Part shown: in pieces, positions 59,178-64,000 of the stretch
How positions within the stretch are numbered: the first letter of the stretch is position 1
Layout: each line of letters starts with the position of its first letter
DNA from: Escherichia coli
GTDB taxonomy: Bacteria; Pseudomonadota; Gammaproteobacteria; Enterobacterales; Enterobacteriaceae
NCBI RefSeq assembly: GCF_003334785.1
Contig: NZ_QOWV01000012.1
DNA: 64,000 bases
Direction: 5' to 3' (one strand)
Program-made: the position numbers and the translations under genes
The notes under the pieces: generated by a model
What the model saw: the letters and a program-made list of their open reading frames with translations, nothing else
What the model was told of the DNA's origin: nothing
Database searches by the model: none

Positions 59178-59690
59178 TTAAATCGCAGCTTCCATTTCCA
59201 GCATCACCGGATGGAAACGGCGTTTAAAGTAGATAAGTCCGTGACCTTCTGCACTGAGGATGATGTTTTTAATCTCCACCAGATACACCAGATGTGTGCC
59301 AATTGCCTGCACATCGCGGATCTCACCTTCAAGACTGGCCAGCGAACCTTTTAGCACCGGCTGCGCCAGCGGACCTTTTTGCCAGCATGAGAGGCTAAAA
59401 CGCTCTTCCATCGCCATGCCTGTCATGCCCGCGAAGTGGCGTGCCATCAGTTCCTGCTCATGGTTGAGGACGTTGACGCACAACTTGCCGTTGCCCTGAA
59501 AAACCGGGTTCATCGCACTGTTGGCGTTAATGCACACCATCAGCGACGGTGGTGTATCCGTGACCGAGCAGACAGCCGTTGCCGTAATCCCGCATTGTCC
59601 GGTGTCGCCCTCGGTGGTGATAATATTTACCGCTGCCGACAGGCTGGCCATCGCGTCACGAAAGCGCAGGCGTTGTTCATCTAATTGCAT
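59178..59690 (-). CDS. hpaC: 4-hydroxyphenylacetate 3-monooxygenase reductase component HpaC
   Basis: 170-aa flavin reductase MQLDEQRLRFRDAMASLSAAVNIITTEGDTGQCGITATAVCSVTDTPPSLMVCINANSAMNPVF... Confidence 0.9.
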   Translation of the reverse strand: MQLDEQRLRFRDAMASLSAAVNIITTEGDTGQCGITATAVCSVTDTPPSLMVCINANSAMNPVFQGNGKLCVNVLNHEQELMARHFAGMTGMAMEERFSLSCWQKGPLAQPVLKGSLASLEGEIRDVQAIGTHLVYLVEIKNIILSAEGHGLIYFKRRFHPVMLEMEAAI

Positions 59691-59707
59691 CTTAACCTCC
59701 TGCTGCG

Positions 59708-61270
59708 TTATTTCAGCAGCTTATCCAGCATGTTGATATCGTCGTTGTTGTGCAGGTGCGGCACAGTCCAGCCGTTCTGGTCGTATTCCGACAGGCAGCG
59801 ATCAACCATCGCCATCATCTTGTCCATATTGCCGGAGCTTTGTGCCTGGCGCAGACACTGCAGGCGAATCTCATCCTGGCTACCGGAGTAGTTGATTTCA
59901 TACAGTTCGTGGCGACCACCAAACTCGCTGCCAATGGCGTCCCACATCAGTTTGAGGATCTTGATGCGCTGGACGTGATCCATACCATTCGAACCGCGCA
60001 CATACTTCGCCAGATACTGGTCGATCTGCGGATTGTTCAGGTCACGGGCACTGGAAGGGAGGTAGATCAGGCCACTGGTAACGTTGCGTTCGATAATGTT
60101 TTTGATCTTCGCGTAGGCCATTGGTGCCAGTACGCGATAGGTTTGCAGTGCGGCATGATCCGGTAAATAAGCCCCGTTGACCCACGGCGTCGCTTCAGAA
60201 CACATCGAGTCACTCAATGCCCAGAAGGTGTTGCGCCACGCCACCACTTCACCGAGATCGGCCTGCACACCACGGAACTCCAGGGTGCCGGTACATTCGA
60301 GTGATTTTTTCAGCAGTGCCGTAATGAAGTCGAGTTTCACTGCCAGGCGCACACAGGCTTGCAGCGGATACATACGGGCAAAACCGCCTTCCATCGTCCA
60401 GCGACGGCAGCGATCAAAATCGCGGTAGATCAGCACGTTTTCCCATGGGATCAGCACGTTATCCATCACCAGAATCGCATCATTCTCATCGAAGCGGCTG
60501 GAGAGCGGGTAGTCATACGGTGAGCCGGTAGCACCCGCGACCATCTCATAAGAGGCGCGGGAGATTAATTTCACGCCATCAGCATCCATTGGCGCAACGA
60601 ACATCAGCGCGAAGTCCGGGTTTTCGCCCATTACTTGTGCCGAGCCGAAGCCAACCATGTTGTAGTGAGTCAGCGCCGAGTTGGTGGCAACCACTTTCGC
60701 ACCGCTAACGATAATCCCGGCGTCAGTCTCTTTTTCCAGCTTGATGTAAACGTCTTTCACTTTATCGGTCGGCAAATGACGATCGATCGGTGGGTTAACA
60801 ATCGCGTGGTTAAAGTAGAGGCCAGTTTCCTGAATACGGGTATACCAGTTACGGGCGTTCTGCTCGAACTGACCGTAAAAGCCCGGATTCGCGCCCAGTG
60901 CGCAACCGAAAGCAGCTTTGTAGTCTGGGGTACGGCCCATCCAGCCATAGCTCAGGCGTGACCACTCAGCGATGGCGTCGCGTTGCTGGCGCAGGTCGTC
61001 GGCACTTTTCGCCACGCGGAAGAATTTATGGGTATAGCCGCCGCTGCCGGTGTCGGTGTTCCAACACAGAGAGTCCTGCATCTCCGGTTTGTGCAGCGCG
61101 TCGTACAGTTGGGCAACAGACGCTGCCGCATTACGAAATGCCGGATGAGTAGTGACGTCTTTCACTCGCTCGCCATAGATATAGATCTCGCGACCATCCT
61201 GCAGGCTTTTCAGATACTCTTCCCCGGTGAACGGACGTTGGGTACTGGCGCGGAAATCTTCTGGTTTCAT
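59708..61270 (-). CDS. hpaB: 4-hydroxyphenylacetate 3-monooxygenase oxygenase component HpaB
   Basis: 520 aa; MKPEDFRASTQRPFTGEEYLKSLQDGREIYIYGERVKDVTTHPAFRNAAASVAQLYDALH... Confidence 0.9.
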   Translation of the reverse strand: MKPEDFRASTQRPFTGEEYLKSLQDGREIYIYGERVKDVTTHPAFRNAAASVAQLYDALHKPEMQDSLCWNTDTGSGGYTHKFFRVAKSADDLRQQRDAIAEWSRLSYGWMGRTPDYKAAFGCALGANPGFYGQFEQNARNWYTRIQETGLYFNHAIVNPPIDRHLPTDKVKDVYIKLEKETDAGIIVSGAKVVATNSALTHYNMVGFGSAQVMGENPDFALMFVAPMDADGVKLISRASYEMVAGATGSPYDYPLSSRFDENDAILVMDNVLIPWENVLIYRDFDRCRRWTMEGGFARMYPLQACVRLAVKLDFITALLKKSLECTGTLEFRGVQADLGEVVAWRNTFWALSDSMCSEATPWVNGAYLPDHAALQTYRVLAPMAYAKIKNIIERNVTSGLIYLPSSARDLNNPQIDQYLAKYVRGSNGMDHVQRIKILKLMWDAIGSEFGGRHELYEINYSGSQDEIRLQCLRQAQSSGNMDKMMAMVDRCLSEYDQNGWTVPHLHNNDDINMLDKLLK

Positions 61271-61520
61271 GTCGACCTCTACAGTATTAATCGGAATACG
61301 ATTGTTAATTTTGTGTGTTGTTTTTGTTATTCAATTGAAGCTTGCAGGGGCGATTACGGGAAGAGACTTTTGGGACAATGGCTGGTACTTTTCAGGTCGG
61401 GTACGGTTTTGTGATCGAGGTCGCTTTTAGCGATTTTTGACGTTACTAAATCCCCTTGCTCCAGGCGGAGAAAGGGGAATAGCAGGTGGTGCCTGGTTTC
61501 CCGTTAAGGCTAAGGGATTT

Positions 61521-62411: not shown

Positions 62412-62420
62412 CGTCGTTCC

Positions 62421-63797
62421 TTACGGGGTCGCTCGCGGACGGGAGGACTGCATTGGAATCGCCCAGATAATCCCCGCACCAATCACCAGCAGCGCGGCAA
62501 CAAACCACAATCCACTGTTAAAGCTGCCGGTCAGATCTTTCAACCAGCCGATCATAAACGGACTTAATGCTGAACCAATGTTGCCAGTGGCGTTGATCAC
62601 CGCAATACCGATCGCTCGTGCCCGCAGGCTGATGGACTGATCCGGTGTTGTCCAGAAAATCGCCATTGCGCTGAATGATCCTGTCGAAGCCATAATGATC
62701 CCCAGCATCTGGATCATGTTGTGATCAGTTGCCGAAGCCAGTAACCAACCAGCGGCAGCGAACAAATAAGGAAGGGCGGTGTGATGCCTTCGTTCCTGGC
62801 GGTGATCTGAGTGACGGCTCCAGTAAATCATCCCGAGAATGGTACAAATCTGCGGTACGGCGGCCAGCAGGCCGATGGTGATATTACTGCTGCCCTGATT
62901 AAAGCTTTGCAGGATCTGCGGTGTCCAGATGCTGATCGCACTAAGTGTGTTGGTCAGGCAGAAATACGCCAGGGTATACATCATCACCACCGGAGTGAAG
63001 ATCTCCCGCCACATGCTGCGTTGTTGCATGGCGTGGTGGCTGATGGCTCCCTCTGGCTGAACCAGCGTCAGACGATCGTTATCCATCATCTCTTGCAGGC
63101 ATTTTTTGTCTTCTTTCGTCAGCCACTTAGCTTTGTCCGGTGAGTCATCAAGCCAGAACCACACCATGATGCCGAGTAATACCGACGGGAAGCCTTCCAG
63201 CAAAAACAGCCACTGCCAGCCTTTTAATGCCATTACGCCATCCAGCGACAAAATGTAGCCGGAAACGATCGATCCCAACGCTGTCGTTACCGGCATTGCC
63301 ACCATAAACAAGGCGTTGGCACGGGCGCGGAAATAGGCCGGAAACCAGAAGGTTAAATACAGCAGAATGCCAGGCAGAAAGCCGGCTTCGGTAATGCCAA
63401 CCAGTATACGCAGTACGTACAAGCTGGTGGGGCCAGTGGCAAACATGGTGGCAGTAGAGGCGATGCCCCAAAGCACCATGATGGTGGCGATCCAGCGCCG
63501 CGCACCGACAATACTCAGCATAATGTTGCTGGGAATGCCGAAGATGACATAAGCGGCGTAGAACAGGGTGGTGGCGAGGCCAAACATGGTGGCGCTCAGA
63601 CCGAGGTCGCGTCCCATCGTGAGTCCGGCAAAGCCGATGTTGATGCGATCAAGGAACGAGAAGATAAACAGCACGAACAGAAAGACGATCAGGCGGCGAA
63701 ACAGCTTCTTAATAACCGCCTGTTGTCCGGCAGTCAGCGCTTTATGCTGATTCGCCGGATCGATACTCTCCGGTATGGCAGGTGAGGTGTCGCTCAT
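62421..63797 (-). CDS. hpaX: MFS 4-hydroxyphenylacetate permease HpaX
   Basis: MSDTSPAIPESIDPANQHKALTAGQQAVIKKLFRRLIVFLFVLFIFSFLDRINIGFAGLTMG...; 458 aa from the internal Met. Confidence 0.85.
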   Translation of the reverse strand: MSDTSPAIPESIDPANQHKALTAGQQAVIKKLFRRLIVFLFVLFIFSFLDRINIGFAGLTMGRDLGLSATMFGLATTLFYAAYVIFGIPSNIMLSIVGARRWIATIMVLWGIASTATMFATGPTSLYVLRILVGITEAGFLPGILLYLTFWFPAYFRARANALFMVAMPVTTALGSIVSGYILSLDGVMALKGWQWLFLLEGFPSVLLGIMVWFWLDDSPDKAKWLTKEDKKCLQEMMDNDRLTLVQPEGAISHHAMQQRSMWREIFTPVVMMYTLAYFCLTNTLSAISIWTPQILQSFNQGSSNITIGLLAAVPQICTILGMIYWSRHSDHRQERRHHTALPYLFAAAGWLLASATDHNMIQMLGIIMASTGSFSAMAIFWTTPDQSISLRARAIGIAVINATGNIGSALSPFMIGWLKDLTGSFNSGLWFVAALLVIGAGIIWAIPMQSSRPRATP

Positions 63798-63835
63798 TTT
63801 TCTTCCTCTAATGGGATTTTTGTAGGGTACGACAA

Positions 63836-64000
63836 GGTTTATGGCGGATGCGCACAAACGCCTTATCCGGTCCGCGATTTGGTACGGCTTTTTGCCGGAT
63901 GCGGCGTAAACGCCTTATCCGGCCTACGGTTTGGTGCGAGTGTAGGCCGGATAAGCGCAGCGCATCCGGCATTAATACACGTCGGGCTTAATCGCTGTAG
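63836..64000. repeat. BIME/REP cluster at the right window edge
   Basis: Repeated gccggatgcggcgtaaacgccttatccggcctac-type palindromic units. Confidence 0.6.

What the first reader, a model, noticed from the sequence alone, without database searches (positions are those of the whole stretch)
59178..64000. 4-hydroxyphenylacetate catabolic genes (hpaXABC) adjoin btsT
Seen in sequence: hpaC, hpaB, hpaA and hpaX on the minus strand, starting immediately right of btsT. Established knowledge: the hpa cluster is absent from K-12 and present in E. coli B, C and W lineages. Inference: supports a non-K-12 background and an aromatic-catabolism island continuing beyond the window.
Basis: partly seen in the sequence, partly recalled or inferred. 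Interest (0 to 1): 0.3.

Follow-up and report, generated by a model that had tools for sequence, protein, structure and literature searches.

The report
Known E. coli 4-hydroxyphenylacetate catabolic genes
The right end of the window carries intact copies of the well-studied E. coli genes that import 4-hydroxyphenylacetate, sense it and carry out the first step of its breakdown; about 38% of complete E. coli genomes have them and K-12 does not, so the finding is correct but ordinary.

Summary
On the minus strand lie hpaC (59178-59690), hpaB (59708-61270), hpaA (61521-62411), hpaX (62421-63797) and the last 29 nt of hpaI (63972-64000). All four complete genes are intact. Each scores above the curated cut-off of its NCBIfam equivalog model, and each is 98.4-99.0% identical in DNA to the experimentally characterised E. 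coli W cluster. HpaB differs at 3 of 520 residues from the crystallised E. coli enzyme and keeps its active-site residues and Arg379. In genomes 100% identical over 57000-64000 the cluster continues as hpaIHFDEG plus hpaR and ends at tsr. K-12 MG1655 has btsT next to tsr with no hpa genes. W and BL21(DE3) carry the cluster at the same site. 2072 of 5426 complete E. coli genomes carry hpaCBAX.

Two refinements. The genes do not start immediately after btsT: a 392-bp spacer holds an ERIC repeat, the btsT control sites and the hpaC terminator. "Island" is only loosely apt: there are no mobility genes, tRNA or flanking repeats, and divergence matches the neighbouring core genes. The btsT-tsr spacer is a variable locus with four main alternative contents. 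Already known; low interest.

The parts
56635..58785 (-). btsT (yjiY), pyruvate/H+ symporter. Conserved core gene that forms the left flank; not part of the hpa cluster.
   Evidence: RefSeq annotation of identical DNA. 98.05% identical to K-12 btsT. Its only NCBIfam hit is the CstA pyruvate/proton symporter model, below that model's cut-off.
58803..58925 (.). ERIC/IRU-type dispersed repeat of 123 bp. It is inserted 17 nt upstream of the btsT ATG, in what is probably the btsT 5' leader. K-12 lacks it at this site.
   Evidence: Seen as a gap in the alignment to K-12. 20 of 22 bases match the ERIC1R primer sequence, which I recalled from memory, at 58865-58886. Forms a long imperfect hairpin, z = -4.1. 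Median 8 copies per E. coli genome; a copy at least 95% identical is present in 2057 genomes, about the number that carry hpa.
59044..59072 (-). BtsR (YehT) box of the btsT promoter: direct repeat ACC[G/A]CT[C/T]A with a 13-nt spacer.
   Evidence: Only match in the window, with 0 expected by chance. The motif itself is recalled from Kraxenberger et al. 2012 and was not read here. BtsR control of yjiY is stated in PMC5431176.
59121..59136 (.). CRP-like site TGTGATTGAGATCACA. It is the last element conserved in all four versions of the btsT-tsr spacer that were aligned, so it marks the left edge of the variable segment.
   Evidence: Only match in the window, 0.07 expected by chance. Conserved in the four-way alignment. 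cAMP-CRP control of yjiY is stated in PMC5431176.
59136..59171 (-). Intrinsic terminator of hpaBC: hairpin at 59145-59171 followed by AUUUUUAUU.
   Evidence: Folds at -22.8 kcal/mol, z = -4.85, immediately after the hpaC stop codon.
59178..59690 (-). hpaC, the NAD(P)H:flavin reductase component of 4-hydroxyphenylacetate 3-monooxygenase (170 aa).
   Evidence: NF012030 384 bits (cut-off 315) and TIGR02296 267 bits (cut-off 206). One amino-acid difference from E. coli W. Flavin-reductase relatives have solved structures.
59708..61270 (-). hpaB, the FADH2-dependent oxygenase component (520 aa).
   Evidence: TIGR02310 1109 bits, cut-off 885. 517 of 520 residues identical to the E. coli HpaB of PDB 6QYH/6QYI. 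R113, Y117, H155, S210-A211-Q212 and R379 are present.
61271..61520 (-). hpaA-hpaB spacer, which carries the HpaA-activated P_BC promoter by homology to E. coli W.
   Evidence: 247 of 250 bases identical to the W spacer. The role of P_BC is described in PMC4468947 and PMC7180172. No consensus sigma-70 promoter was found on this strand.
61521..62411 (-). hpaA, AraC/XylS-family activator of hpaBC that responds to 4-HPA, 3-HPA and phenylacetate (296 aa).
   Evidence: TIGR02297 385 bits, cut-off 275. Three amino-acid differences from W.
62421..63797 (-). hpaX, MFS-type 4-hydroxyphenylacetate permease (458 aa).
   Evidence: TIGR02332 890 bits, cut-off 615. Three amino-acid differences from W. The start codon is taken from RefSeq.
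63798..63971 (.). hpaI-hpaX spacer filled with about three REP-type palindromic units (a BIME-like array).
   Evidence: The sequence shows repeated GCCGGATAAGGCGTTTACGCCGCATCCGGCA-like units, with direct and inverted repeats. The spacer is 51 bp shorter in BL21(DE3). These units, together with the ERIC repeat, probably explain the median of 22 places per genome when 57000-64000 was searched; that attribution is my inference.
63972..64000 (-). Last 29 nt of hpaI (4-hydroxy-2-oxoheptanedioate aldolase), the last gene of the meta-cleavage operon. The rest lies beyond the window.
   Evidence: RefSeq annotation of DNA that is 100% identical over 57000-64000.

Best explanation
This is the upper, substrate-entry half of the classical E. 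coli hpa (4-hydroxyphenylacetate / homoprotocatechuate) pathway, in intact and presumably working form. HpaX imports 4-HPA. HpaA, an AraC-type activator, binds 4-HPA (also 3-HPA and phenylacetate) and switches on the P_BC promoter. HpaC uses NAD(P)H to reduce free flavin and hands FADH2 to HpaB. HpaB then hydroxylates 4-HPA or 3-HPA to 3,4-dihydroxyphenylacetate. That product feeds the hpaGEDFHI meta-cleavage operon, which begins at the window's edge, is controlled by HpaR, and yields pyruvate and succinate. Gene identities, intactness, order and chromosomal position are shown here. The biochemical and regulatory steps are inferred from near-identity to the characterised E. coli W, B and C system. 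The cluster fills the variable part of the btsT-tsr spacer. It is best read as a long-resident chromosomal segment that some lineages, including K-12, lack, and not as a recently acquired mobile island.
For: The four ORFs are intact and each exceeds the cut-off of its NCBIfam equivalog model. HpaB matches the E. coli crystal-structure sequence at 517 of 520 residues and keeps its catalytic residues plus R379. PMC7201708 shows R379 is needed for growth on 3HPA. DNA identity to E. coli W is 98.4-99.0% in the genes and 98.8% in the P_BC spacer, with no gaps. Gene order and site match W and BL21(DE3). The cluster is complete through hpaR in genomes identical over 57000-64000. The pathway and its regulation are described in PMC7180172, PMC4468947 and PMC7201708. 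For long residence: no tRNA, no mobility genes and no flanking direct repeat of 9 bp or more. The cluster's GC content is 54.6%, close to the 56% of neighbouring btsT. The hpa genes differ from W and BL21 by 0.6-1.9%, similar to flanking yjiA and btsT at 1.1-2.5%.
Against: Nothing found contradicts the gene assignments. Function in this strain was not tested. Only 29 nt of the downstream operon lie in the window, so its intactness in this very genome is unknown. The window is not identical to the reference genome left of about 57 kb. HpaA carries three substitutions relative to W, one of them (N278Y) in the C-terminal region that aligns to AraC-family regulators. The exact hpaCBAX allele is a minority one: 99% or more identical in only 147 of the 2072 carrier genomes. 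The direction of the polymorphism, ancestral loss or ancient gain, was not resolved on a phylogeny.
Confidence: 0.93

Rival explanations
1. [quoted passage not shown]
For: Remnants of this kind exist elsewhere. RR1 has an IS1-bounded deletion that removes hpaC and the 3' end of hpaB. About 50 of the 2072 genomes with a match cover less than 80% of hpaCBAX.
Against: All four ORFs here are full length with no internal stops, have the same lengths as in W and BL21(DE3), and carry only 1-3 amino-acid substitutions. The catalytic residues of HpaB are present.
Confidence: 0.04
2. The hpaBC-like pair is a paralogous two-component flavin monooxygenase for another phenolic substrate, for example a chlorophenol or nitrophenol monooxygenase, and not 4-HPA 3-hydroxylase.
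For: The protein family includes chlorophenol-4-monooxygenase (PDB 4OO2, E = 1e-176) and related enzymes. E. coli HpaB itself has a broad phenol substrate range (PMC7201708).
Against: 517 of 520 residues match E. coli HpaB itself. The equivalog-level model is exceeded, while the sister model TIGR02309 falls below its cut-off. The pair is embedded in the complete hpa cluster together with hpaA and hpaX.
Confidence: 0.01
3. The cluster is a recently and horizontally acquired mobile genomic island inserted next to btsT.
For: It is present in only 38% of genomes. The btsT-tsr spacer holds at least three different cargoes besides the empty form, as expected of an integration hotspot. The hpa and D-amino-acid cargoes share about 64 bp of junction sequence that K-12 lacks.
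Against: There is no integrase, transposase or tRNA, and no flanking direct repeat. GC and GC3 content resemble those of btsT. Divergence between lineages equals that of the flanking core genes. PMC7201708 likewise proposes loss in K-12 of a cluster present in ancestors.
Confidence: 0.1

Closest known systems
hpa cluster of Escherichia coli W (ATCC 11105; Prieto, Diaz and Garcia 1996; GenBank Z37980), here read from NC_017635.1
   Same: Same genes, order, orientation, gene lengths and chromosomal site between btsT and tsr. DNA identity is 98.4-99.0% in hpaC, hpaB, hpaA and hpaX, and 98.8% in the P_BC spacer. The 392-bp btsT-hpaC spacer, including the ERIC repeat, is also the same.
   Different: There are 1, 1, 3 and 3 amino-acid substitutions in HpaC, HpaB, HpaA and HpaX respectively. 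In W the neighbouring restriction-gene block is replaced by the penicillin G acylase gene; that difference lies outside the hpa cluster.
hpa cluster of E. coli B (BL21(DE3), NC_012971.2)
   Same: Same cluster and the same insertion site. The genes are 98.1-99.4% identical, and HpaB has Arg379 as in BL21(DE3), which grows on both 3HPA and 4HPA.
   Different: The hpaI-hpaX spacer is 51 bp shorter in BL21(DE3), which I take to be one fewer REP unit. REL606, another B strain, has Cys379 and cannot use 3HPA.
Crystallised E. coli HpaB (PDB 6QYH/6QYI, 6EB0, 6B1B)
   Same: Full-length alignment over residues 1-520 with 517 identical.
   Different: The three differences are V206I, S478N and N498D (window residue first). 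None is at a listed active-site position.
hpa cluster of Yersinia pseudotuberculosis (PMC7180172)
   Same: Same enzymes and transporter, and HpaR represses the cluster.
   Different: Yersinia has no hpaA, and the genes form a single operon, hpaG1G2EDFHIXBC. The window has the E. coli arrangement, with hpaA and a separate HpaA-dependent hpaBC unit.

Membership tests
E. coli-type hpa (4-hydroxyphenylacetate) catabolic cluster | HpaB oxygenase of the HpaB-2 (enterobacterial) type | tested here: met
   TIGR02310 scores 1109 bits against a cut-off of 885. The sister model TIGR02309 falls below its cut-off. 517 of 520 residues match PDB 6QYH.
E. coli-type hpa (4-hydroxyphenylacetate) catabolic cluster | HpaC flavin reductase encoded directly downstream of hpaB | tested here: met
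   NF012030 scores 384 bits (cut-off 315) and TIGR02296 267 bits (cut-off 206). The gap between hpaB and hpaC is 17 nt and contains AGGAGG.
E. coli-type hpa (4-hydroxyphenylacetate) catabolic cluster | AraC/XylS-family activator HpaA upstream of hpaBC, with the P_BC spacer between them | tested here: met
   TIGR02297 scores 385 bits against 275. The spacer is 247 of 250 bases identical to that of E. coli W. Activation itself was not tested.
E. coli-type hpa (4-hydroxyphenylacetate) catabolic cluster | MFS permease HpaX upstream of hpaA | tested here: met
   TIGR02332 scores 890 bits against 615. The gap between hpaX and hpaA is 9 nt.
E. coli-type hpa (4-hydroxyphenylacetate) catabolic cluster | Adjacent meta-cleavage operon hpaGEDFHI and repressor gene hpaR | tested here: inconclusive
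   Only the last 29 nt of hpaI lie in the window. The full set is present in genomes 100% identical over 57000-64000, and in W and BL21(DE3).
E. coli-type hpa (4-hydroxyphenylacetate) catabolic cluster | HpaB substrate- and flavin-site residues (R113, Y117, H155, loop S210-A211-Q212) and R379, needed for 3HPA | tested here: met
   All are present. The residue list and the role of R379 come from PMC7201708; the 210-212 loop is recalled from memory.
E. coli-type hpa (4-hydroxyphenylacetate) catabolic cluster | Growth on 4-HPA or 3-HPA as sole carbon source, with 4-HPA-inducible hydroxylase activity | not testable with these tools
   This needs the strain.
Horizontally acquired mobile genomic island | Integrase, transposase or other mobility genes inside or at the borders | tested here: not met
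   All 11 annotated genes between btsT and tsr are hpa genes.
Horizontally acquired mobile genomic island | Insertion at a tRNA or tmRNA gene, or flanking direct repeats (att sites) | tested here: not met
   No tRNA is found in the locus. No direct repeat of 9 bp or more is shared between the two borders.
Horizontally acquired mobile genomic island | Base composition or divergence pattern unlike the flanking core genes | tested here: not met
   The cluster's GC content is 54.6% and its GC3 0.58-0.66, against 56% and 0.69 for btsT. Identity to W and BL21 matches that of yjiA and btsT.
Horizontally acquired mobile genomic island | Variable presence among strains at a fixed chromosomal site | tested here: met
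   Four alternative contents occupy the btsT-tsr spacer, found in 2752, 2072, 366 and 194 of 5426 genomes.

The most novel reading that the evidence does not exclude
The btsT-tsr spacer may be a four-allele cargo-exchange locus. Its variable part begins immediately after the CRP site of the btsT promoter and ends 59 bp before the tsr start codon. The hpa allele travels in near-complete linkage with an ERIC hairpin inserted 17 nt upstream of the btsT start codon. If that hairpin alters the stability or translational control of the btsT mRNA, strains with and without hpa would also differ in how they scavenge pyruvate.
Probability: 0.12. Interest if true: 0.3.

Novelty: already known. Interest (0 to 1): 0.08.

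Why it matters
The finding mainly serves as a strain marker and a phenotype prediction. The source strain is not K-12. Provided the downstream operon is intact, it should grow on 4- and 3-hydroxyphenylacetate, which gut bacteria produce from tyrosine and from plant phenolics. HpaBC is also widely used in biotechnology to make catechols, and this allele differs at three residues from the crystallised enzyme. Nothing here changes what is already known about the system.

Tried and rejected
- **Primary literature:** The papers on the W cluster and its regulation (Prieto 1996, PMC177627; Galan 2003, PMC275547; Diaz 2001 review, PMC99040) are not held. Regulatory details therefore rest on secondary citations and on my memory.
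- **Hotspot literature:** A search for a described yjiY/tsr hotspot returned only irrelevant papers.
- **Promoter scan:** The consensus scan found no sigma-70 promoter on the minus strand in the P_BC or hpaX upstream spacers. Its terminator rule missed the hpaC terminator, presumably because it allows loops of only 3-8 nt. The terminator was shown by folding instead.
- **Rfam:** No family matched in 56500-64000.
- **Source genome:** I first assumed the window was FDAARGOS_497. That is wrong: identity is 100% only over 57000-64000, 99.3% over 48963-64000 and about 98% further left.
- **Two failed requests:** Two annotation requests were one base over the size limit.
- **Scans skipped:** I ran no further search on synteny in other genera, because the identification was already unambiguous.
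Full report
**Observation.** A megablast of 57000-64000 against 5426 complete E. coli genomes found many chromosomes that are 100% identical. RefSeq annotates these ORFs there as the 4-HPA 3-monooxygenase reductase subunit (hpaC), hpaB, hpaA and hpaX, next to btsT. RefSeq starts hpaX at the ATG at 63797, which is preceded by GAGGAAG, and not at the upstream TTG, giving 458 aa. The last 29 nt of the window are the 3' end of hpaI. Each protein exceeds the curated cut-off of its NCBIfam equivalog model. None has an internal stop, and all have the same lengths as in E. coli W and BL21(DE3).

**Gene identity.** Against E. coli W, the strain in which the pathway was characterised, DNA identity is 99.0% for hpaC, 98.9% for hpaB, 98.4% for hpaA and 98.7% for hpaX. 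The corresponding amino-acid changes number 1, 1, 3 and 3. The 8.6-kb alignment is gapless. HpaB matches the crystallised E. coli enzyme (6QYH/6QYI) at 517 of 520 residues. It keeps R113, D116, Y117, N154, H155, A156, the S210-A211-Q212 loop and R379. PMC7201708 shows that Arg379 is required for growth on 3-HPA but not on 4-HPA, so use of both isomers is predicted. HpaC's relatives with solved structures are short-chain flavin reductases.

**Mechanism.** The mechanism is inferred from this near-identity and from PMC7180172, PMC4468947 and PMC7201708.
- HpaX imports 4-HPA.
- HpaA bound to 4-HPA activates the P_BC promoter.
- HpaC reduces flavin for HpaB.
- HpaB makes 3,4-dihydroxyphenylacetate.
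- The HpaR-controlled hpaGEDFHI operon converts that product to pyruvate and succinate.

The 250-bp P_BC spacer is 247 of 250 bases identical to that of W. A strong hairpin followed by a U-tract sits immediately after the hpaC stop codon.

In genomes identical over 57000-64000 the cluster continues as hpaI, H, F, D, E, G, then the divergently transcribed hpaR, then tsr. K-12 MG1655 has btsT followed directly by tsr across a 377-bp spacer. W and BL21(DE3) have the full cluster at the same place. 2072 of 5426 genomes (38%) carry hpaCBAX, 2022 of them over at least 80% of its length. The shared flanks are 97.2-98.05% identical to K-12 for yjiA and btsT, so the background is clearly not K-12. The window is also not strain FDAARGOS_497, because identity drops left of about 57 kb. 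One caveat is that the K-12 x B hybrid RR1 carries B-derived hpa DNA, truncated by an IS1-bounded deletion that ends inside hpaB.

**The btsT-hpaC spacer.** hpaC does not start immediately after btsT. The 392-bp spacer contains four elements.
- A 123-bp ERIC-type repeat lies at 58803-58925, 17 nt upstream of the btsT ATG. It is absent from K-12, matches the ERIC1R primer sequence at 20 of 22 bases, and folds into a long hairpin. It has a median of 8 copies per genome.
- The BtsR box lies at 59044-59072. The motif is recalled from memory.
- A CRP-type site lies at 59121-59136.
- The hpaC terminator follows.

PMC5431176 states that yjiY (btsT) is controlled by BtsR, by cAMP-CRP and, at the level of translation, by CsrA.

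**Is it an island?** Alignment to K-12 shows clean homology up to 59075, a divergent stretch of equal length up to the shared CRP site, and then unrelated sequence. On the right, homology resumes 59 bp before the tsr ATG. The variable segment is about 11.3 kb with 54.6% GC. It holds only hpa genes, has no tRNA, and has no flanking direct repeat of 9 bp or more. Its divergence from W and BL21 equals that of the flanking core genes. This fits the view cited in PMC7201708 that K-12 lost a cluster present in ancestors better than it fits a recent mobile-element insertion. The direction of the change was not tested on a tree.

**A variable locus with four alleles.** The same spacer carries other contents in other lineages.

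| Content of the btsT-tsr spacer | Genomes (of 5426) |
|---|---|
| Empty, as in K-12 | 2752 |
| hpa cluster | 2072 |
| One 180-aa hypothetical ORF (top matches include O157:H7 strains) | 366 |
| Five-gene cassette (amino-acid deaminase, N-acyl-D-amino-acid deacylase, RidA, sodium:solute symporter, RpiR regulator) | 194 |

Together these account for 5384 of 5426 genomes. The representative of each allele that I aligned keeps the CRP site and the tsr-proximal 59 bp. The hpa and D-amino-acid alleles also share the next roughly 20 nt, up to the first arm of a terminator hairpin. A copy of the ERIC repeat at least 95% identical to the window's is present in 2057 genomes, essentially the hpa carriers. 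This is a tidy example of a multi-allelic chromosomal hotspot. Hotspots of this kind are, from my knowledge, a familiar feature of E. coli genomes.

**Verdict.** The finding is a correct identification of a well-known, textbook gene cluster at its usual chromosomal site. It is already known and of low interest. The minor side observations are listed separately.

Noticed in passing
window 58803-58925: A 123-bp ERIC/IRU-type palindromic repeat is inserted 17 nt upstream of the btsT start codon, downstream of the BtsR box and so probably within the btsT 5' leader. K-12 lacks it at this site. A copy at least 95% identical occurs in 2057 genomes, nearly the same set size as the hpa carriers (2072). 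Because btsT translation is reported to be under CsrA control, the insert could affect btsT expression.
   Followed up: partly
window 59137 rightwards; loci L002 6281-6657, L006 14001-15063, L007 14001-20156: The btsT-tsr spacer is a multi-allelic variable locus. It is empty in 2752 genomes, holds hpa in 2072, a single 180-aa hypothetical ORF in 366 (top matches include O157:H7 strains), and a five-gene cassette in 194 (deaminase, N-acyl-D-amino-acid deacylase, RidA, sodium:solute symporter, RpiR regulator). The aligned representatives of all four share the CRP-like site and the 59 bp before tsr.
   Followed up: partly
window 63798-63971: The hpaI-hpaX spacer is filled with about three REP-type palindromic units. 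The spacer is 51 bp shorter in BL21(DE3). In W, the hpaH-hpaF gap is 43 bp longer than in BL21(DE3) and FDAARGOS_497. These look like small REP copy-number differences inside the cluster.
   Followed up: partly
L008 (E. coli RR1, NZ_CP011113.2) 7471-10550: In the K-12 x B hybrid RR1, an IS1 element joins a truncated Rpn-family gene directly to a 3'-truncated hpaB. The helicase gene, mcrBC, hsd, mrr, yjiA, yjiX, btsT and hpaC are all missing. The rest of the B-type hpa cluster remains. HB101 matches only the tsr-proximal 61 nt of the K-12 spacer.
   Followed up: partly
window 50665-50686: A second ERIC-like copy (3 mismatches to the ERIC1R primer sequence) lies in the hsdM-hsdR spacer.
   Followed up: no
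window 47921-48963 and 45572-47090: The hsdS region has no megablast match to the otherwise closest genome examined, FDAARGOS_497, or to BL21(DE3), while symE matches at only about 94%. The restriction-gene block of this strain therefore appears to carry a different type I specificity subunit from strains that share its exact hpa allele.
   Followed up: no
window 59178-63797: The hpaCBAX allele in the window is a minority one. Only 147 of the 2072 carrier genomes are 99% or more identical; the others listed in the spread sample are mostly 98.4-98.9% identical.
   Followed up: no
L001 27155-28516 (FDAARGOS_497, beyond the window): lgoT, the galactonate transporter gene just beyond tsr, is annotated as a pseudogene with an internal stop in a genome that shares the window's exact hpa allele. 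In BL21(DE3), lgoR is frameshifted instead.
   Followed up: no
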